A stretch of 61,228 bases of DNA, taken from an uncultured Bacilli bacterium (lineage in GTDB: Bacteria; Bacillota_I; Bacilli_A; RF39; UBA660). The position numbers and the translations under genes were made by a program. Shown here in pieces: positions 1 through 61,228 of the stretch (its first letter is position 1; each line of letters starts with the position of its first letter). Below the pieces are notes generated by a model. That model was given only the letters and a program-made list of their open reading frames with translations. It was not told the DNA's origin and did not search any database. The stretch spans positions 1 to 61,228 of the forward strand of contig CAKOJI010000003.1 in the NCBI GenBank assembly GCA_934089255.1, in the 5' to 3' direction.

Positions 1-86
1 ATTTACTAATTAATTAAACAAGAGTGTCACTTACAAAGGGTAGACATTTCTTTCTTAAATGTTCTACTTAATATAAGTTTATCATA

Positions 87-113
87 AAGTACTTGAAAAG
101 TGTACTTTTTTTG
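87..113 (+). terminator. Rho-independent terminator of a gene that ends upstream of the window
   Basis: aagtac/gtactt stem with a 9-nt loop, followed by a T-run. Confidence 0.45.
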
Positions 114-221
114 TTATATTTTTATTAGGGTAGTAAACTACTCAAAATACCAAAGTTGGAACTGGCGAGTCTTTAAGTGATTATATTTATTTAATTTTGT
201 TCCTGTAGAGATAATACAAAT

Positions 222-527
222 ATGTATGTAGGAACATTAACGGCAGATGAAATGTCATTCGCAGGTGCAACTGGTTCAACTAATTATACTCATTATTTAA
301 TGAACAGTTATGCAAAGAGTAATTATTTATCTTGGTGGGGGCTTTCTCCGGGCAGTTATGATGCTGAGTATGGTCGCGATAACGCATTCGCCGTGTTCAG
401 CGATGGCAGCTCGGACGACAACTATGTATACAACGTCGGCTCGTTCCGTCCCGCAGTAACTCTCTTGTCTTCCATAATTATAAAAACAGGAAATGGAACT
501 ATATCAAATCCTTATGTTGTTTCGTAA
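222..527 (+). pseudogene. Orphan C-terminal cassette (101 codons) homologous to the last ~100 residues of the 9800..11425 protein. It lacks a signal peptide and an N-terminal domain.
   Basis: Shares LTADE[MV]SFAGA ... WW..SP ... FRP ... G.GT.SNPYV with 9800..11425. An in-frame stop lies at 192..194, and there is no Shine-Dalgarno before ATG 222. It contains its own GC-rich island at 341..460. Confidence 0.5.
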
Positions 528-9799: not shown

Positions 9800-11425
9800 A
9801 TGAACAGAAAACAGAAGATTATAGTAAGTGTAACAGGAATATTTATAGTATTATTAATACTTGTAGGATTAACATATGCATACTTCTTAACTAGAATACA
9901 AGGAAATACTAATACTAAATCTATTTCAGTTACAACTGCAGATTTAAAATTAACATACGGAGATGGAACTAATCAAGTATTAGCACCAGATACAAAATTA
10001 CTTCCTGGTAGTGATGCAATAGGTACTAAGGATTTTACTGTTACAAATGAAGGAAACAGTAAAACTAGTTATGTAGTAGTAATTGAAGATGTAAGTATTA
10101 CTAAAAATGGTAGTACTACTACATTCGAATCTAATGACTTTAGATATACTTTAACTTGTACTAAAAAAGATGGTACAAAATGTGATGGGATTACATCACA
10201 AACAATATTTCCAATAAATGGTGGACTTTTAATATCAAATAGTGTAGATGTAAGTGATGTACAATCATACACATTAACATTATGGTATATAGATACTGGA
10301 ATAGACCAATCAAATGATATGGGAAAAACATATAATGCAAAAGTAAATATAAAAGATACTGATTCATTAACATTAAATAATCCATATAGAAATGAAACAG
10401 ATACATTAAAGAAAACTATAATAGATAATGCTATGATAGGAACTGGTAGTACTAAAATGGGTAGTGAAGTAACTACATTTACTAAAGTTTCAGGAGAAAA
10501 TGACAAACTACTTAATACAGCACCAGATGATTATGGTACAAGTTACTATTACTATGGAGCAGTAACAGATAATTATGTATCATTTGCAAATAAACTATGG
10601 AGAATAGTACGAATTAATGGAGATGGCTCAATAAGACTAGTTTTAGATGATGTTGCAAAAGATAGTAGTGGAAGTGTAATAGAAACTGAATTTAATCCAA
10701 ATTTTGATGATAATGCATATGTAGGATATATGTATGGCACAACAGGAAGTACAACATATGATGAAACGCACAGGAATATAAATGATAGTACAATAAAAAC
10801 AAATGTAGATAAGTGGTATGAAGATAATTTAAAAACAAATTATGCAAACTATTTATCAGATACATTATTCTGTAATGATAAAACACTTTCTTCAAGTGGT
10901 ATAGGTGAAGTGACAACACAACTTGGTTATGGAGCAAATAGAACATTTTATTCAACAACAGAAAGATTGGAATATAGTACAGGAACAACAGACATAACAA
11001 CTGCAAAGCCAACATTTAAATGTGCAGAAAGTGCAACAAATGATTATTCAAGATTTACAGTAAATGTCATAACACTACCAAATGGAAATAAAACAAATGG
11101 AAATTTAACATATCCAGTAGGACTACTAACAGCTGATGAAGTATCATTTGCTGGAGCATACAAAAGTGGTCAAACAAATAAATCATGTTATTTATACAAT
11201 TCTTCCATATCTTCTCGTTGGTGGCTTTCGTCTCCGGATTTTTATGGCGGTTCGACTGCGTTTGAGTGGGTCGTTTATGCATCGTATGGTTACTTCGGAA
11301 GCAATGACGTCGTCAACAGTGGTGGTGTCGATCCTGTCGCTTTCCGCCCTAGTATCAATCTAAAGGCTGAAACGCTTGTGAGTCAGGGTGATGGTACTAA
11401 ATCAAATCCTTATGTTATAAAATAA
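9800..11425 (+). CDS. Secreted protein with a SipW/TasA-type signal peptide. It has a TasA-like N-domain and a large C-terminal adhesin-like domain ending in a WW..SP...FRP module.
   Basis: The N-terminus MNRKQKIIVSVTGIFIVLLILVGLTYAYF matches the TasA/camelysin signal class. The N-domain is paralogous to 36310..37056 and 44943..45722. The C-terminus is homologous to 222..527. Confidence 0.8.
   Translation: MNRKQKIIVSVTGIFIVLLILVGLTYAYFLTRIQGNTNTKSISVTTADLKLTYGDGTNQVLAPDTKLLPGSDAIGTKDFTVTNEGNSKTSYVVVIEDVSITKNGSTTTFESNDFRYTLTCTKKDGTKCDGITSQTIFPINGGLLISNSVDVSDVQSYTLTLWYIDTGIDQSNDMGKTYNAKVNIKDTDSLTLNNPYRNETDTLKKTIIDNAMIGTGSTKMGSEVTTFTKVSGENDKLLNTAPDDYGTSYYYYGAVTDNYVSFANKLWRIVRINGDGSIRLVLDDVAKDSSGSVIETEFNPNFDDNAYVGYMYGTTGSTTYDETHRNINDSTIKTNVDKWYEDNLKTNYANYLSDTLFCNDKTLSSSGIGEVTTQLGYGANRTFYSTTERLEYSTGTTDITTAKPTFKCAESATNDYSRFTVNVITLPNGNKTNGNLTYPVGLLTADEVSFAGAYKSGQTNKSCYLYNSSISSRWWLSSPDFYGGSTAFEWVVYASYGYFGSNDVVNSGGVDPVAFRPSINLKAETLVSQGDGTKSNPYVIK
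11221..11350 (+). other. Adenine-depleted, GC-rich codon island inside the CDS (candidate hypervariable region)
   Basis: My hand count gives A17 T45 G39 C29 of 130 nt. It is full of codons that are rare elsewhere in the window (tcg, gtc, ggc, gcg, cgc, ccg). Confidence 0.5.
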
Positions 11426-11430
11426 AATAT

Positions 11431-11505
11431 AAATCCACAAAATATTGTGGATTTTTTGATATTTAAGAGTGTATTTTAATATGATAGTATTAGAGTGGTG
11501 GTAGT
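11431..11505 (+). promoter_or_regulatory. Repeated terminator + promoter module (copy 1), upstream of the hydrolase-murF-ddl operon
   Basis: aatccacaa..ttgtggatt hairpin + T-run, then TTGATA-18-TATGAT. A ~75-nt near-copy lies at 30378..30452. Confidence 0.6.
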
Positions 11506-15270: not shown

Positions 15271-15335
15271 TTTTTTAATTTAATTATAAAATTATGGTAT
15301 TGTATTTTACAATTTCAATTAGGGGAGTGATTAAT

Positions 15336-17159
15336 ATGTTAAAAGAAAAAACAGGATATGCAAGTATTGATAAACCTTGGTTAAAGTATTATCCTAACAA
15401 TGTGTATGAAACAGTTACAGAAAATGTTGATGAAAAAATATTTGATTTTATGCATTCAAAAAATATTGATGATTTAAATGATTATGCTTTAAGTTATTTT
15501 GGAAGAAAAATAACTTATACTGAAATGTTTAGCGAAATAGAAAATTATGCAAAAATACTTAAAGGATATGGAATTGGCAAAAATGATATAGTTTCATTAT
15601 GTTTACCTAACATTCCAGAAACAGTGTATTTAAAATATGCTTTAAATAGAATTGGTGCTATTTCTAATATGATTGATCCTAGACAAAGTAGTCAAAATAT
15701 TTTATCTTTTGTAAATGATACAAATTCTAAATTATTATTTTGTATTTTGGATGCTTGTGAGTTAAAAATCAATCCTATAATAGATAAATTAAAAGTTGAT
15801 GATGTTGTTATTTTAAGTGTTTCAGATTCGTTAAATATGAATACTAATTTGACATCTTCTATAGTAAATTTGATGTATAAAATCAAAAAAAATGATTATA
15901 TAAATAAAAATAAAAATTATAAAAGTAAATATAAATTTAATGATGATTTAAATAAATTCTATACTGATTATTTAAATGTTGATACTAATTATGAACCCGA
16001 TGATGTTGCAACAATAATGTACACTAGTGGTACAACAGGTACAGCAAAGGGTGCTATGTTAACTAATGAAGCTTATAATACAATGCATAATCAATTACAA
16101 TATACAGCTGATTTTAGAAGAAAAGATACTTTTTTTGGAGCTATTCCATTCTTTTCGGCATATGGTTCTTTTTGTGGAATGCATAATTCGTTGTGTTCAG
16201 GACAAGAAATAATTTTGTTACCTAAAATTGATCCAAATAAAATAGATAAAGTATTGTTAAAATATAAACCAAATATATCTTTCTTGGTTCCTGGATATTG
16301 GGAAAGTTTTAGCAATAGTAAAAAAGCGAATAAAAAAGATTTATCATATATGAAAATTATTGTTGCCGGAGGAGATAAATGGGCGCCTGCATCAATTAAT
16401 ATTGTTAACGATTTCTTGAAAAAACAAAATTGCGAACATAAAGCAAGAGTTGGTTATGGTGCAACAGAATTTGGTGGTGCTGTCTCAGTTGTTCCTGAAA
16501 GTGATTTATATATAGCAGGAAGCGCTGGTTTAGTTTTACCATCTTGTAATGCAATGGTAATTGATAGAGAAACTAATGATGAATTGAAATATAATGAGAT
16601 AGGTGAGATTTGTATATCATCTCCAACAATGATGAAAGGTTATATAAACAAAGAAGAAGAAACTAATCAATTAGTTATTGTTAAAAATAATGAAAAATTT
16701 TATAAAACTGGAGATCAAGGATATATTAATGAAGATGGAATTATTTTCGTTATTGACAGATATAAACGTTCAATGATGAGACCAGATGGTCATACAGTGC
16801 ATGCAACTCCAATAGAAAATACAATTTTAGAAAATGAAAATGTCGAAAAATGTTGTGTTGTTGGTTTAAAAATTGGAGATAAGGCTGGAGATATCCCTAC
16901 TGCATTTATTAAAGTAAAAAATAAAACTAATATAGAAGACTTTATAAATGAATTAGATAATTATTGTTTAAAATACTTAGCTGAAAGGGATAGAGCATTA
17001 GCATATGTTTTAATCGATGAAATGCCATATAATCTAATGGGAAAAATTGATTATAGAAAATTAGAACAAATTAATATAAAAGACTTAGATATAATAATTG
17101 TTGATAATACATTTTTTAGGGAAAAAAGTAATAAAAAAATATTAAAATTACAAAAATGA
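15336..17159 (+). CDS. Acyl-adenylate-forming enzyme (ANL superfamily, acyl-CoA/ACP-synthetase-like)
   Basis: YTSGTTGTAKGA AMP-binding motif, GYGATE and TGD. The N-terminal SIDKPWLKYY is shared with 19225..21570. The start is set to ATG 15336 behind AGGGGAG. Confidence 0.8.
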   Translation: MLKEKTGYASIDKPWLKYYPNNVYETVTENVDEKIFDFMHSKNIDDLNDYALSYFGRKITYTEMFSEIENYAKILKGYGIGKNDIVSLCLPNIPETVYLKYALNRIGAISNMIDPRQSSQNILSFVNDTNSKLLFCILDACELKINPIIDKLKVDDVVILSVSDSLNMNTNLTSSIVNLMYKIKKNDYINKNKNYKSKYKFNDDLNKFYTDYLNVDTNYEPDDVATIMYTSGTTGTAKGAMLTNEAYNTMHNQLQYTADFRRKDTFFGAIPFFSAYGSFCGMHNSLCSGQEIILLPKIDPNKIDKVLLKYKPNISFLVPGYWESFSNSKKANKKDLSYMKIIVAGGDKWAPASINIVNDFLKKQNCEHKARVGYGATEFGGAVSVVPESDLYIAGSAGLVLPSCNAMVIDRETNDELKYNEIGEICISSPTMMKGYINKEEETNQLVIVKNNEKFYKTGDQGYINEDGIIFVIDRYKRSMMRPDGHTVHATPIENTILENENVEKCCVVGLKIGDKAGDIPTAFIKVKNKTNIEDFINELDNYCLKYLAERDRALAYVLIDEMPYNLMGKIDYRKLEQINIKDLDIIIVDNTFFREKSNKKILKLQK

Positions 17160-17219
17160 TTTTAATATTTTTTCTTGCTATTACGGGAATATTTTGATAC
17201 TATTAGTCTAGGTGATAAT

Positions 17220-19007
17220 ATGAATGTGGGTATATCTTTTACTTTGTTAAGTGTAATATATAATTTAATTTTAAATATTATATATTTACCTAAAGAACGT
17301 ATAAAAAGTATAGAAAATACAATCTATACAGTTTTAATTTTAACAACATTATTTGGGAGTATAGAAGGTATATTTTGTTATATAGGCGTAAAATATTATG
17401 ATATATATCCTTTATTTTCAGTTTTAGTTTCTAAAGGGTATTTAGTTTTTTTACTTATCTGGTTTTCTATATTTACACTTTATGTAATATATATTTCTAA
17501 TATTAAAATTTATGGTGATAATAAAGAAAAATTTTTCAGAGTAATAAAGTTATTTGTAGTTTTAGCTATTATAATATTTTTACTTATTTGTTTTTTGCCA
17601 ATAATTTATGTATCAAATAATAATATAGTTTATACAACTGGTTCAAGTGTTAAGTGTGTTTATTCATTTTCTGTATTATATTTTATTGTTTGGATAGTTT
17701 GTGTTATAAAAAATATTAAAAATTTAAATAAAAAATTTATTCCAGTATTTTTAAATATTGTACTTTTGATTGTAGTAGTTGCTATACAAAAATATAATCC
17801 AGCGTTATTACTTGTTACATCATCTTTATCATTAATTACCTTTTTGATGTATTTTACAATAGAAAATCCCGATGTTAAACAAATGAAAGAACTGGCTAAA
17901 AATAATCTTATAACAGAACAGGCATATATAGATAAATCTAATTTTATATTTGAGATGACACAAGAGGTTAGAGAACCATTAAATTATATAAAAAATACAA
18001 CAAAGAATATGTTAGACAATGAACCTAGTAAAGATGAATACAAAGAAGGATTAACATACGTTTATAATGCTTCAAGACAATTAGATTTTGTAGTTAATGA
18101 TGTTTTAAATGTTAGTTCTTTAGATGTACAAAAAGTTAAATTTTTAAATAATAGATATAGTTTAAAAATGATTTATGAAGACTTAATAAAAAGAATTGAA
18201 CAAAGTGTTAGTAAAACTGTGGAATTTAGACATACTATTCCAAGTGAAGTTCCATATTTATATGGAGATAATATAAAATTAAAACAAGTTTTATATTCTT
18301 TATTAATGAATGCTGTTAGAAAAACTGAAAATGGTTTTATTGAGTTTAATATAGATATTATAGAAAAATATGATGTTTGTAGAGTTATTTTTAGAATAAC
18401 TGATAGTGGTGTTGGTATAGGTATAGACAAAATAAATGAAATATTAAGTGTTACTAGTGAATTAGATAAAGATGATATAGTTAATTTAGAAAAATCAGAA
18501 TTTAATATAGAATTGTGTCAAAAAATAATTAAATCATTAGGTGGTAATTTACTTATTAAAAGTAAGTTAGGAAAAGGTACTGAAATAATTTTAACAATAG
18601 ATCAAAAAAAATATATTGAAAAAAATATAGTAGACTCTAATAATTTTGGAAATAAGAGTGTTTTAGTAGTTAACCAAGATAAAAATATTAATAATCTACT
18701 TAGAAAGAAATTTCTTAAAAATGATATAAATGGTTCATTTTTAATGTATGGAATGGATGCAATAGATAAAATTAAGAGTGGTAAAAAATATGATTATATA
18801 TTGTTACAAGATGAAATGAAAGAAATGTCTGGATATGAAACTTTAAAAAAATTAGAAGAATTAGATAAATTTGATATGCCAGTAATTATAATGTTAAAGG
18901 AAAATAAATATAGTATAAAAGAGCATTATATAAAAGATGGTTTTAGTGATTATATTTTATTGGGAAGTTTTAGTAGTGAAATAGATAGAATAATGAACAA
19001 ATATTAA
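17220..19007 (+). CDS. Membrane hybrid histidine-kinase-like protein with a degenerate H-box and a degenerate receiver (pseudo-kinase, copy 1)
   Basis: About 7 TM helices. The H-box-like EMTQEVREPLN has Gln where His is expected. The N box LLMNAVRKTENG, G1 DSGVGIG and G2 GKGTE are retained. The receiver-like VLVVNQD ... ILLQDEMKEMSG has Gln at the Asp position. The start at ATG 17220 is set by analogy with the paralog (taggtgataatATG versus taggtgataatGTG). Confidence 0.75.
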   Translation: MNVGISFTLLSVIYNLILNIIYLPKERIKSIENTIYTVLILTTLFGSIEGIFCYIGVKYYDIYPLFSVLVSKGYLVFLLIWFSIFTLYVIYISNIKIYGDNKEKFFRVIKLFVVLAIIIFLLICFLPIIYVSNNNIVYTTGSSVKCVYSFSVLYFIVWIVCVIKNIKNLNKKFIPVFLNIVLLIVVVAIQKYNPALLLVTSSLSLITFLMYFTIENPDVKQMKELAKNNLITEQAYIDKSNFIFEMTQEVREPLNYIKNTTKNMLDNEPSKDEYKEGLTYVYNASRQLDFVVNDVLNVSSLDVQKVKFLNNRYSLKMIYEDLIKRIEQSVSKTVEFRHTIPSEVPYLYGDNIKLKQVLYSLLMNAVRKTENGFIEFNIDIIEKYDVCRVIFRITDSGVGIGIDKINEILSVTSELDKDDIVNLEKSEFNIELCQKIIKSLGGNLLIKSKLGKGTEIILTIDQKKYIEKNIVDSNNFGNKSVLVVNQDKNINNLLRKKFLKNDINGSFLMYGMDAIDKIKSGKKYDYILLQDEMKEMSGYETLKKLEELDKFDMPVIIMLKENKYSIKEHYIKDGFSDYILLGSFSSEIDRIMNKY

Positions 19008-19028
19008 TGTATTGTTTTGTTAAATGAA

Positions 19029-19087
19029 TTAAATTTATTTTTATAATATAAGGACTTACTTTTTTGGTAAGTTTTTTTGTTTTTTAT
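19029..19087 (+). terminator. Terminator plus flanking remnant, near-identical to the uppP 3' end and its terminator (25008..25068)
   Basis: acttac-ttttttg-gtaagt hairpin + T-run. About 45 of 48 nt are identical to the copy after uppP, and the similarity extends into sequence matching the last uppP codons. Confidence 0.6.
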
Positions 19088-19110
19088 TAACAAAAGTATG
19101 TTATAATTAG

Positions 19111-60475: not shown

Positions 60476-60560
60476 TGGTGCGGGTAACAGGACTTGAACC
60501 TGCACGGAAGAATCCACTAGATCCTAAGTCTAGCGCGTCTGCCAGTTCCGCCATACCCGC
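60476..60560 (-). tRNA. tRNA-Leu (anticodon TAG)
   Basis: Hand-folded cloverleaf with a long variable arm and encoded CCA. A terminator hairpin follows at ~60446..60466. Confidence 0.85.
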
Positions 60561-60570
60561 AATTAAAAAA

Positions 60571-60647
60571 TGGTGGATCTTGTAGGACTCGAACCTACGA
60601 CCGCCCGGTTATGAGCCGGATGCTCTAACCAACTGAGCTAAAGATCC
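60571..60647 (-). tRNA. tRNA with a CAT anticodon (elongator Met or lysidine-type Ile2, not initiator-like)
   Basis: GGATCTT/AAGATCC acceptor stem and CTCATAA anticodon loop. The anticodon stem lacks the GGG/CCC feature of initiator tRNA. Confidence 0.8.
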
Positions 60648-60756
60648 GTAATTATCCGCCATTGCTCTTTAATAATAACATATTTAGATATACAACGCAA
60701 CATATTTTTTAAATTTTTTAATAAAAAAAACTTATTACTAAGCTTTAAATCAATTT

Positions 60757-60833
60757 TGGTGACCCGTACGGGATTTGAACCCATGAATGCATGCGTGAAA
60801 GGCATGTGTGTTCAACCACTTCACCAACGGGCC
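60757..60833 (-). tRNA. tRNA-Glu (anticodon TTC), copy 1
   Basis: GGCCCGT/ACGGGTC acceptor stem, CTTTCAC loop and encoded CCA. Confidence 0.85.
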
Positions 60834-60924
60834 ATAAATGACTAGTTAAATATACTATATTAATGGTAATGTTGTCAAGAAAAAAATAAAAAAACTTATC
60901 AATTTGATAAGTTTGTATTCAAAA

Positions 60925-61001
60925 TGGTGACCCGTACGGGATTTGAACCCATGAATGCATGCGTGAAAGGCATGTGTGTTCAACCACTTCACCAACGGGC
61001 C
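60925..61001 (-). tRNA. tRNA-Glu (anticodon TTC), copy 2, identical to copy 1
   Basis: The same 77-nt sequence. Confidence 0.85.
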
Positions 61002-61005
61002 AAAA

Positions 61006-61082
<77 letters not shown>

Positions 61083-61155
61083 ATCACAATTGACTTATTT
61101 ATTATAACTAATAAAATTAACATTTGTCAATAAAATATTTATTAATAATCAAAAA

Positions 61156-61228
61156 TGGTGGGCTGTTAGGGATTCGAACCCTAGACCCACTGATTAAGAG
61201 TCAGTTGCTCTACCAACTGAGCTAACAG
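61156..61228 (-). tRNA. tRNA-Lys (anticodon CTT). The 5' end is truncated by the window edge.
   Basis: ACAGCCCACCA 3' end and CTCTTAA anticodon loop. About 3 nt of the acceptor stem are missing. Confidence 0.75.

What the first reader, a model, noticed from the sequence alone, without database searches (positions are those of the whole stretch)
11221..11350. Adenine-depleted ~52% GC codon island at the C-terminus of a SipW-signal surface protein: candidate DGR-type variable region
Inside an otherwise AT-rich CDS, the 130 nt encoding WWLSSP...VAFRP have A17 T45 G39 C29 by my hand count (13% A, 52% G+C). The window as a whole is about a quarter G+C and A-rich on coding strands. The shift is at the synonymous level: tcg (x4), gtc (x5), ggc, gcg, cgc and ccg are used here, whereas the rest of the window uses agt/tct, gtt/gta, ggt/gga, gct/gca, aga and cct/cca. 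A mutational or foreign origin is therefore more likely than protein-level selection. The island sits in the last ~70 codons of a secreted protein, in a WW..SP ... [FV]RP module resembling ligand-binding lectin-like folds. That is where diversity-generating retroelements place variable regions. Randomising the adenines of an A-rich template (A->N) predicts low A and raised G, C and T, which is what is seen. The AT-rich flanks LTADEVSFAGA and GDGTKSNPYV are conserved with the paralog at 222..527. No reverse transcriptase, Avd or template repeat is present in this window, so the mechanism is inferred.
Basis: partly seen in the sequence, partly recalled or inferred. Interest (0 to 1): 0.78.

Follow-up and report, generated by a model that had tools for sequence, protein, structure and literature searches.

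The report
Retroelement-written variable region, template missing here
The odd GC-rich, adenine-poor patch at the end of this surface-protein gene is the variable region of a diversity-generating retroelement (DGR), a known kind of targeted hypermutation system. The template and reverse transcriptase that write such regions are present next to related genes in other gut bacteria but absent from this window, where the patch looks frozen.

Summary
Window 11221-11350 is A17 T45 G39 C29. It has the lowest A count of all 130-nt windows in the 61 kb. Third-position GC is 0.50 against 0.09 in the rest of the CDS.

The DGR reading is supported by comparison, although no template is present here. Islands in related genes (49-67% aa identity) share an A-free nucleotide scaffold interrupted by NNY codons. 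In three related loci a template repeat (TR) with AAY at those codons lies about 115-130 nt downstream of the target gene's stop (about 190 nt after the variable region). VR/TR mismatches fall on template adenines in 18 of 18 and 21 of 22 cases. In two of those loci the TR is followed by MutS-like, Avd-like and reverse-transcriptase genes.

The window itself has no TR, RT or Avd, and only an 80-nt terminator-bearing gap downstream. Its VR is 44 codons long; every TR found is 39. Five strain variants carry an essentially unchanged VR.

Verdict: a DGR-written variable region in a DUF6273-related target. It is probably orphaned, or rewritten only rarely from a remote template. It is a new member of a known kind, of modest interest.

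The parts
9800..11425 (+). DGR target gene (541 aa). It has an N-terminal signal/TM helix, a beta-rich domain, and a C-terminal DUF6273-related module that carries the variable region.
   Evidence: ORF list and translation. 4655 homologues at E<=1e-3. PF12389-type N-terminus in 15 of 65 relatives and PF19789 (DUF6273) in 11 of 65 at E<=1e-3. The window's C-terminus scores 19.6 bits against DUF6273, below the 23.5-bit cut-off.
9806..9901 (+). N-terminal hydrophobic helix with the ...GLTYAYF... motif (camelysin/TasA-type signal region).
   Evidence: AF2 helix at residues 3-34. Peptidase_M73 N-terminal hits in relatives. It is the only such motif in the window.
11219..11350 (+). Variable region (VR): 44 codons, WWLSSP...AFRP. 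This is the adenine-depleted GC-rich island.
   Evidence: Composition. Scaffold and NNY pattern shared with VRs of 10 other loci. Against heterologous TRs, mismatches are enriched at template adenines: 13-14 mismatches at 20-21 A sites against 6-9 at 57-58 non-A sites, p=2e-6 to 6e-5.
11219..11236 (+). 5' invariant scaffold TGGTGGCTTTCGTCTCCG, identical to the 5' end of the TRs in L002 and L080.
11339..11352 (+). 3' invariant scaffold GCTTTCCGCCCTAG, the end of VR/TR homology. It is a candidate IMH-like element.
   Evidence: Identical to the L080 TR end. VR and TR diverge immediately after ...CCCTAG in all three cognate pairs. The IMH function is inferred, not tested.
11353..11371 (+). VR-specific downstream flank TATCAATCTAAAGGCTGAA. 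It is conserved at the nucleotide level in nearly all VR loci and absent after TRs.
   Evidence: No significant hairpin (DNA fold z = -0.65).
11426..11505 (+). 80-nt intergenic gap with a terminator-like hairpin (about 11432-11458). It contains no leader, TR or spacer.
   Evidence: Sequence. blastn with the relatives' leader and spacer finds nothing in the window.
222..527 (+). Remnant (101 codons) of a second family member (WWGLSP...SFRPAV type). Its 5' part is lost.
   Evidence: Full-length in L001 (411+ aa). Split by a frameshift in L085.
333..452 (+). Second adenine-poor GC-rich island (GC 0.57, A 0.17). It is a type-2 VR-like region inside the remnant.
   Evidence: The same region is hypervariable in 25 relatives, with fixed G, D, F and SRP positions. 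No template was found for it.

Best explanation
The island is the variable region (VR) of a diversity-generating retroelement target gene.

**How it was written.** In this family a template repeat (TR) encodes WWLSSP-NNYNGSNANEWNVNGSNGNINNNNVNNTNAFRP. The fixed residues use adenine-free codons and the variable residues use AAC or AAT. The TR is transcribed and copied by an adenine-error-prone reverse transcriptase. The cDNA then replaces the homologous stretch at the 3' end of the target gene. That leaves NNY codons between an unchanged T/G/C-only scaffold. In a 24% GC genome such a stretch stands out as A-poor and GC-rich.

**What was shown and what is inferred.** The scaffold, the A-specific VR/TR mismatches and the RT-Avd-MSL cassette were shown in relatives. 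That the window's own VR was written this way is inferred from homology and from its codon pattern.

**State of this locus.** The cassette is not present in the window. The VR is 44 codons long, while every TR found is 39. It is unchanged in five strain variants. It is therefore most likely an orphaned VR, or one only rarely rewritten from a remote template. If orphaned, it now evolves at the background rate.
For: - **Shared scaffold.** Islands in L002, L062-L069, L080, L082, L083 and L094 share TGGTGGCTTTCGTCTCCG ... GGTTCG ... GCG ... GAGTGG ... GTT ... TCG ... GGT ... GTC ... GCTTTCCGCCCT, identical at synonymous sites. The proteins are only 49-67% identical to the window's, and all intervening codons are NNY.
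- **Template repeats.** A second copy with AAY at exactly those codons begins about 115-130 nt after the target's stop codon (about 190 nt after the VR) in L002-L005, L067 and L080.
- **A-specific mismatches.** VR/TR mismatches within the repeat are 18 of 18 at template A in L002 and 21 of 22 in L080. Counting one junction position just past the repeat, Fisher p is 1.6e-10 and 2.2e-11.
- **Cassette genes.** In L067 and L080 the TR is followed by a conserved spacer and then three genes: a MutS_I-like gene (26.2 bits, cut-off 20.6), a bAvd-like gene (38.9 bits, cut-off 40; NCBIfam DivGenRetAVD E=1.2e-8) and an RT (RVT_1 32.2 bits, cut-off 29.6; motif IGSYISQ). This matches the MSL-containing 'architecture D' of Wu et al. 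(PMC5758913).
- **Residue repertoire.** In 39 distinct 39-residue VRs, 620 of 624 residues at template-Asn positions are reachable from AAY by changing only the adenines. K, E, Q, M and W make up 13.5% elsewhere in these proteins.
- **The window's own VR.** GC3 is 0.50 and A3 is 0.05, against 0.09 and 0.49 in the rest of the CDS. Its 5' and 3' scaffolds are identical to known TR ends. Its mismatches to three heterologous TRs are concentrated at template adenines.
- **Literature.** DUF6273 is a published DGR target domain with the VR at its C-terminus and a C-type-lectin-like fold (PMC10743442, PMC11792537).
Against: - No TR, RT or Avd lies in the 61-kb window. No room exists for a TR downstream of the gene.
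That scan returned only the two known TRs and not even this VR, so this genome or this allele may not be in that collection.
- None was found among 15 template-like small ORFs in the protein collection.
- The VR has 6-9 non-A mismatches to every available TR in its first 78 nt. Most are third-position C/T differences.
- The VR does not vary among five strain variants beyond two single-residue changes. It shows 1 nt difference in 130 against a strain that is about 99% identical genome-wide.
- The C-type-lectin fold could not be confirmed. Both AF2 models have pLDDT below 50 in this region.
Confidence: 0.9

Rival explanations
1. Active remote target. The VR is still rewritten, but by a DGR cassette (TR plus RT) located elsewhere in the same chromosome or on a mobile element. 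It would act in trans on several paralogous genes, rarely enough that sampled strains look identical.
For: - The 5' and 3' scaffold ends needed for homology with a TR are intact and identical to known TR ends.
- Most family members examined have no adjacent TR: L082, L083, L094 and L095.
- Genomes carry several VR-bearing paralogues. Two contigs from the sister strain's sample with matching coverage carry three.
- VR invariance within 90%-identity clusters is the rule in this family (4 of 9 other clusters have a single VR). In the cluster of the L080 target, which has a complete cassette next door, the three members carrying the L080-type C-terminal module share one VR.
Against: - No 44-codon TR was found anywhere searched.
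- All six template-like sequences seen are 39 codons long.
- The VR evolves at the background rate between strains.
- Relatives show cassettes in several stages of decay. Loss is therefore common in this lineage.
Confidence: 0.3
2. Foreign DNA. The island was acquired by horizontal transfer or gene conversion from a higher-GC donor gene.
For: The composition shift is local and occurs at synonymous sites.
Against: - The same scaffold occurs in many paralogues and orthologues of equally AT-rich genomes (loci at 24-26% GC).
- The donor-like copy that exists, the TR, is itself resident in those genomes and is A-rich at the variable codons.
- The island is specifically A-depleted with excess T (AT skew -0.43). 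It is not simply GC-rich.
- No high-GC match was seen in any search.
Confidence: 0.02
3. Hypervariable loop maintained by diversifying selection plus recombination among paralogues, with no retroelement involved.
For: - Strain comparisons show mosaic recombination in this gene. The N-terminal patch 10084-10306 holds 35 of the 38 differences.
- Whole C-terminal modules are swapped within 90%-identity clusters.
- VR lengths vary from 39 to 45 codons.
Against: - Selection on protein does not explain identical synonymous codons at fixed positions.
- It does not explain the near-absence of A in third positions.
- It does not explain the restriction of variable residues to the NNY set (620 of 624).
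- It does not explain AAY-bearing non-coding copies with A-only mismatches.
- Recombination plausibly moves VRs around, but it does not create this pattern.
Confidence: 0.05

Closest known systems
DGRs with MutS-like (MSL) and Avd accessory genes ('architecture D' of Wu et al. 2018, PMC5758913)
   Same: Relatives of the window gene carry target - TR - MSL - avd - RT on one strand. Mutagenesis is adenine-specific, and the VR lies at the 3' end of the target.
   Different: - In the window only the target and its VR are present.
- In relatives the TR is preceded by a conserved leader of about 95 nt containing an imperfect hairpin, and followed by a conserved spacer of about 220 nt. Neither matches any Rfam family.
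- Several loci keep only parts of the cassette.
DUF6273 (PF19789) C-type-lectin-like DGR target proteins of gut Firmicutes phages (tentaclins, Faecalibacterium prophage targets; PMC10743442, PMC11792537)
   Same: The VR lies at the C-terminal end of a DUF6273-type module with a WW..S ... [FL]RP frame.
   Different: - This is a chromosomal gene for a protein with a camelysin/TasA-type N-terminal signal region. The neighbourhood is housekeeping and sporulation genes (spoIIGA, sigE, pyk, mraY-like, ftsW), not a phage tail protein.
- No relatives or template junction were found in the viral contig collection.
- The Pfam match of the window protein itself is below threshold.
Bordetella phage BPP-1 DGR (Mtd, TR, Avd, bRT), the reference system
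   Same: Same logic: an AAY-rich TR, A-to-N substitutions, VR/TR homology ending in a GC-rich 3' element, and an Avd-like accessory gene. The comparison to BPP-1 rests on established knowledge. The A-specific pattern was tested.
   Different: - The gene order differs: TR - MSL - avd - RT rather than avd - TR - RT.
- There is an extra MSL gene.
- No significant hairpin lies downstream of the VR.
- The host genome has 24% GC, so the VR is compositionally conspicuous.

Membership tests
Diversity-generating retroelement (DGR) variable region | A cognate template repeat (TR) of the same length whose differences from the VR fall at template adenines. | tested here: inconclusive
   For this VR no TR was found in the window, in the genome-contig scan or among template-like ORFs. 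The rest of this genome could not be read. For homologous VRs the feature is met: 18 of 18 and 21 of 22 mismatches at template A.
Diversity-generating retroelement (DGR) variable region | A DGR-type reverse transcriptase associated with the TR. | tested here: inconclusive
   Absent from the 61-kb window. Present next to the TR in L067 and L080 (RVT_1 32.2 bits against cut-off 29.6; IGSYISQ motif). The RT is truncated by the contig or locus end in both, so its clade was not placed phylogenetically.
Diversity-generating retroelement (DGR) variable region | An accessory gene (Avd, HRDC, MSL or CH1) in the cassette. | tested here: inconclusive
   None in the window. In relatives: bAvd-like 38.9 bits (cut-off 40), NCBIfam DivGenRetAVD 35 bits (cut-off 80) and MutS_I 26.2 bits (cut-off 20.6).
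Diversity-generating retroelement (DGR) variable region | Variable codons derive from AAY, and substitutions are confined to the two adenines (NNY codons; no K, E, Q, M, W or stop). | tested here: met
   In the window VR, 24 of 26 variable codons end in C or T and none encodes K, E, Q, M or W. Across the family, 620 of 624 residues fall in the NNY-reachable set.
Diversity-generating retroelement (DGR) variable region | An invariant scaffold shared between VR and TR at the nucleotide level, including a GC-rich 3' end (IMH-like). | tested here: met
   The 18-nt 5' end and the 14-nt 3' end of the window VR are identical to the L080 TR. IMH function itself is not testable with these tools.
Diversity-generating retroelement (DGR) variable region | VR-confined hypervariation among closely related strains or reads. 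| tested here: not met
   Five strain variants differ in the VR by two single residues only. The VR shows 1 of 130 nt different against about 1% background divergence. Read-level data were not available.
DUF6273 / C-type-lectin-fold DGR target | A significant match to PF19789. | tested here: inconclusive
   The window's C-terminal 111 aa scores E=8.9e-4, 19.6 bits, below the 23.5-bit cut-off. The full protein gives no hit. 11 of 65 relatives match at E<=1e-3, the best at 7.4e-7.
DUF6273 / C-type-lectin-fold DGR target | A C-type-lectin-like fold with the VR on an exposed face. | tested here: inconclusive
   Two AF2 runs gave pLDDT below 50 over the C-terminal half, so no fold search was run. 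The PDB sequence searches returned only two insignificant antibody heavy-chain matches (E about 0.5).

The most novel reading that the evidence does not exclude
This uncultured low-GC gut Bacilli lineage carries one MSL-type DGR, or none at all, alongside a large family of scattered surface-protein paralogues. Their VRs are written once and then orphaned as the cassette decays. The stages seen are TR without RT, leader only, and leader fused to a target tail. The orphaned VRs are afterwards spread and reshaped by recombination and indels. Under this reading, DGR activity would be episodic, possibly gated by a (GT)n tract that forms the 21-nt spacer of the putative promoter of the MSL-avd-RT operon. 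The window's 44-codon VR would be one such fossil.
Probability: 0.2. Interest if true: 0.5.

Novelty: new member of a known kind. Interest (0 to 1): 0.35.

Why it matters
**Method.** In very AT-rich genomes a DGR variable region can be recognised from composition alone (A-poor, GC3-rich, NNY codons) even when the template and reverse transcriptase lie elsewhere or are lost. RT-anchored DGR finders would miss such orphan or remote targets.

**Biology.** The family is a large set of secreted or surface proteins of uncultured human-gut Bacilli whose ligand-binding tips were diversified by a DGR. Cassettes at several stages of decay, next to intact VRs, give a natural series for asking how long DGR-written diversity persists after the writer is gone.

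For specialists the system itself (DUF6273-type target, MSL-Avd-RT cassette) is already known.

Tried and rejected
- **'X-or-A' pattern on viral contigs.** An IUPAC pattern for the whole island returned 56 matches. The two inspected were poly-A runs and many others lie at contig ends. I replaced it with a pattern anchored on fixed non-A scaffold bases.
- **Viral contigs.** There are no relatives of the protein and no TR/spacer junction. The element is not obviously phage-borne.
- **Genome scan.** The single genome-contig scan found only two TRs, L080 and L081 (the latter is the same contig as L003). It did not find the window's VR, so it could not test this genome.
- **Template-encoded ORFs.** A protein search with a TR-encoded peptide found 15 small ORFs. 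None has 44 codons or is collinear with this VR. Several are leader-TR-tail chimeras.
- **Long-VR relatives.** I looked up the relatives with the longest VRs (P0004 with 43 codons, P0104 with 44) and the nearest relatives (P0003, P0006, P0185), hoping for an adjacent long TR. None had one.
- **Structure.** AF2 on the full protein and on residues 236-541 with a broadened alignment gave low confidence in the C-terminal half both times. I did not run fold searches, because they would be meaningless on such models. PDB sequence searches returned only two insignificant antibody matches.
- **RNA.** Rfam finds nothing on the leader-TR-spacer region. A DNA fold downstream of the VR shows no significant hairpin.
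- **Horizontal transfer.** Considered and rejected; see the rival explanations.
- **Paralogue VR as evidence of activity.** The paralogue's VR differs between the window and L001. I rejected this as evidence of activity because the flanks also differ (about 89% identity, with a different 3' tail). They are therefore different alleles or paralogues.
Full report
**1. The observation**

- The window as a whole is 24.5% G+C. Sliding 130-nt windows have mean GC 0.245 and sd 0.062.
- The island has the lowest adenine count of any 130-nt window in the 61 kb.
- The only comparably GC-rich stretches are a tRNA cluster at 60476-61228 and a second island at 325-460.
- The local profile shows GC rising to 0.49 and AT skew falling to -0.43.
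- Within CDS 9800-11425 (541 aa), the 44 codons 11219-11350 have GC3 0.50 and A3 0.05. The other 497 codons have GC3 0.09 and A3 0.49.
- The shift is therefore real, extreme for this sequence, and located at synonymous sites.
- One small correction: there are three in-frame TCG codons, not four.

**2. What the window lacks**

- A scan of both strands for a copy in which mismatches are allowed only where the copy has A found nothing. The best candidate has 27 non-A mismatches in 130 nt.
- No ORF of 150 aa or more carries reverse-transcriptase motifs.
- tblastn with the RT, Avd-like and MutS-like proteins later recovered from relatives gives no hit in the window.
- The gene is followed by an 80-nt gap with a terminator-like hairpin, and then by a hydrolase gene.
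- The neighbourhood is chromosomal housekeeping: spoIIGA, sigE, pyruvate kinase, a MraY-like transferase, FtsW and a sortase.

**3. The family**

- The protein has 4655 homologues at E<=1e-3 in the metagenome protein collection. The 120 best are 55-97% identical.
- Some carry precomputed PF19789 (DUF6273) or PF12389 hits.
- At the protein level, the stretch between WWLSSP and AFRP is hypervariable inside a fixed frame, while the flanks are conserved.
- At the nucleotide level, islands from ten other loci share an invariant scaffold identical at synonymous sites: TGGTGGCTTTCGTCTCCG ... GGTTCG ... GCG ... GAGTGG ... GTT ... TCG ... GGT ... GTC ... GCTTTCCGCCCT.
- Every intervening codon in those islands is NNC or NNT. 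These proteins are 49-67% identical to the window's, from loci of 24-26% GC.
- Family members that lack this pattern (L070, L073, the second copy in L066, L078) have ordinary AT-rich codons and contain K, E, Q and M in the same region.

**4. Templates and enzymes in relatives**

- *Template repeats.* Searching the fetched loci for the scaffold revealed a second copy that starts about 115-130 nt after the target gene's stop codon (about 190 nt after the VR). It is present in L002-L005 and L067, and in L080, which was recovered from the genome collection.
- *AAY codons.* These copies have AAC or AAT at exactly the variable codons. In-frame translation gives WWLSSPNNYNGSNANEWNVNGSNGNINNNNVNNTNAFRP.
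- *A-specific mismatches.* VR/TR mismatches within the repeat are 18 of 18 at template adenines in L002 and 21 of 22 in L080. Including one junction position just past the repeat, Fisher p is 1.6e-10 and 2.2e-11.
- *Homology boundaries.* Homology begins a few bases before TGGTGG and ends at ...CGCCCTAG.
- *Cassette genes.* In L067 and L080 the template is followed by a conserved spacer of about 220 nt and then three genes:
  - a MutS-domain-I-like protein (26.2 bits, cut-off 20.6);
  - an Avd-like protein (Pfam bAvd 38.9 bits, cut-off 40; NCBIfam DivGenRetAVD E=1.2e-8);
  - a reverse transcriptase (RVT_1 32.2 bits, cut-off 29.6; IGSYISQ motif), truncated by the end of the contig or locus.
- *Classification.* This is the MSL-containing cassette type described by Wu et al. 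(PMC5758913).
- *Source.* The two genome records are titled 'uncultured Bacilli bacterium' MAGs from Hadza gut samples.

**5. Family-wide test of the mutational signature**

- In 39 distinct 39-residue VRs aligned without gaps to the template translation, 620 of 624 residues at template-Asn positions belong to the 15 amino acids reachable from AAY by changing only the adenines.
- K, E, Q, M and W make up 13.5% of residues elsewhere in these proteins.
- Non-Asn template positions are retained in 86% of cells.

**6. The window's own VR**

- Its 5' 18 nt and 3' 14 nt are identical to the ends of the L080 template.
- 24 of its 26 variable codons end in C or T, and none encodes K, E, Q, M or W.
- Over the collinear first 78 nt, mismatches to three heterologous templates fall at 13-14 of 20-21 template adenines. 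They fall at only 6-9 of 57-58 other positions (p=2e-6 to 6e-5).
- Most non-A mismatches are third-position C/T differences. That fits either a template variant using AAT where these use AAC, or later drift.
- The VR is 44 codons long. All six template-like sequences seen are 39 codons long.
- Other VRs of 40-45 codons exist. One of them, in L067, sits next to a 39-codon template. Length changes therefore occur after writing or during it.

**7. Is it active here?**

- The 90%-identity cluster of the window protein has five full-length strain variants.
  - They differ by recombination-like patches in the N-terminal and middle parts.
  - In the VR they differ only by two single-residue changes.
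- Against the sister contig L001, which is about 99% identical over 21 kb, the CDS has 38 differences. Thirty-five lie in 10084-10306 and one lies in the island, a synonymous GGA/GGC change.
- VR stasis within clusters is common in this family. One paralogue, P0185, is identical in 23 or more contigs.
- Most family members examined have no adjacent template.
- Cassettes occur at several stages of decay:
  - template and spacer without RT within 10 kb (L002);
  - leader only (L062, L069);
  - leader fused to a target-tail remnant (L093).
- I could not read the rest of this genome.
- My estimate is about two to one that the VR is orphaned rather than serviced from a remote template.

**8. Why the island is GC-rich**

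The templates show something more specific.
- Fixed residues are encoded with adenine-free codons: TGG, CTT, TCG, TCT, CCG, GGT, GCG, GTT, GTC, GCT, TTC, CGC and CCT.
- Variable residues are AAY.
- After A-to-N substitution the VR keeps C or T at every third position and loses most of its adenines.
- In a genome whose codons normally end in A or T, that produces the observed A-poor, T-rich, GC3-rich patch.

**9. Comparison with known systems**

- DUF6273 is already described as a DGR target domain with a C-type-lectin-like fold and a C-terminal VR. It has been reported in gut phages and in Faecalibacterium prophages (PMC10743442, PMC11792537).
- The window's C-terminus matches PF19789 only below threshold (19.6 bits against 23.5).
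- 11 of 65 relatives match at E<=1e-3.
- Two AF2 attempts failed to give a usable model of the C-terminal half. The fold is therefore not confirmed here.
- Unlike the phage cases, this is a chromosomal gene with a camelysin/TasA-type N-terminal signal region. No viral contig carries a relative or the template junction.

**10. Verdict**

- The island is a DGR-written variable region.
- It is a new member of a known kind. What interest it has lies in two things:
  - the detectability of template-less VRs by composition in AT-rich genomes;
  - the apparent decay series of cassettes in this lineage.

Noticed in passing
window 333-452 (within 222-527): A second adenine-poor GC-rich island (GC 0.57) lies in a truncated paralogue of a different VR type (WWGLSP...SFRPAV). 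The same region is hypervariable in 25 relatives, with fixed G, D, F and SRP positions. No template was found for it. A near-identical strain (L084) differs inside the island by five substitutions, each with an A in one of the two sequences, plus a 7-nt duplication. The roughly 650 nt of flanks hold about eight differences.
   Followed up: partly
window 1-221; L085 2900-3230: The paralogue is a decayed gene. In L085 it is split by a frameshift at an A-run. In the window its upstream part is reduced to short patches of homology. Gene callers therefore report many stand-alone ORFs of about 101-103 aa (P0156-P0173).
   Followed up: partly
window 10084-10306: 35 of the 38 nucleotide differences between the window and the sister strain (L001) in the target CDS cluster in this N-terminal-domain patch. 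This points to allelic recombination in the beta-rich domain. Similar mosaic swaps of middle and C-terminal modules occur within 90%-identity clusters.
   Followed up: partly
window 15287-19092: A 3.8-kb segment holding two ORFs (15294-17159 and 17175-19007) is absent from the otherwise 99%-identical contig L001. Part of it resembles the downstream sensor-kinase/response-regulator gene at about 82% identity.
   Followed up: no
window 50312-50800 (+): OLE (ornate large extremophilic) RNA, Rfam RF01071, 225.8 bits, matched over the full model.
   Followed up: no
window 60476-61228 (-): A cluster of six tRNA genes (Leu, Met, Glu, Glu, Ile, Lys). It accounts for the other GC-rich 130-nt windows.
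   Followed up: yes
L002 11647-11743; also L067 1233-1328, L080, L062 1370-1462, L069 3098-3192, L093 about 2110-2200: A conserved 'leader' of about 95 nt lies between the target stop codon and the TR. It contains an imperfect GC-rich inverted repeat (CACATCTAACGGCG...CGCCGTAGATGTG). It persists alone downstream of target genes that have lost the TR. It matches no Rfam family.
   Followed up: partly
L067 1704-1736; L080 (reverse strand) 6884: The putative promoter of the MSL-avd-RT operon reads TTGACA-C(GT)10-TATATT. Its 21-nt spacer consists of a GT microsatellite. This may be a slipped-strand ON/OFF switch for the retroelement. It is untested.
   Followed up: no
proteins P0145-P0155; L093 2200-2300; L095 12270-12325: Small ORFs and intergenic remnants join the TR leader, or a TR-like stretch, to the C-terminal tail of a target gene (...SINLK...GDGT..NPY). 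They could be products of TR/VR recombination or assembly chimeras across the repeat.
   Followed up: no
L067 1023-1145 vs 1341-1457: A VR of 41 codons lies next to its 39-codon TR in a locus with a complete cassette. VR length can therefore drift from, or be miscopied from, the template.
   Followed up: no
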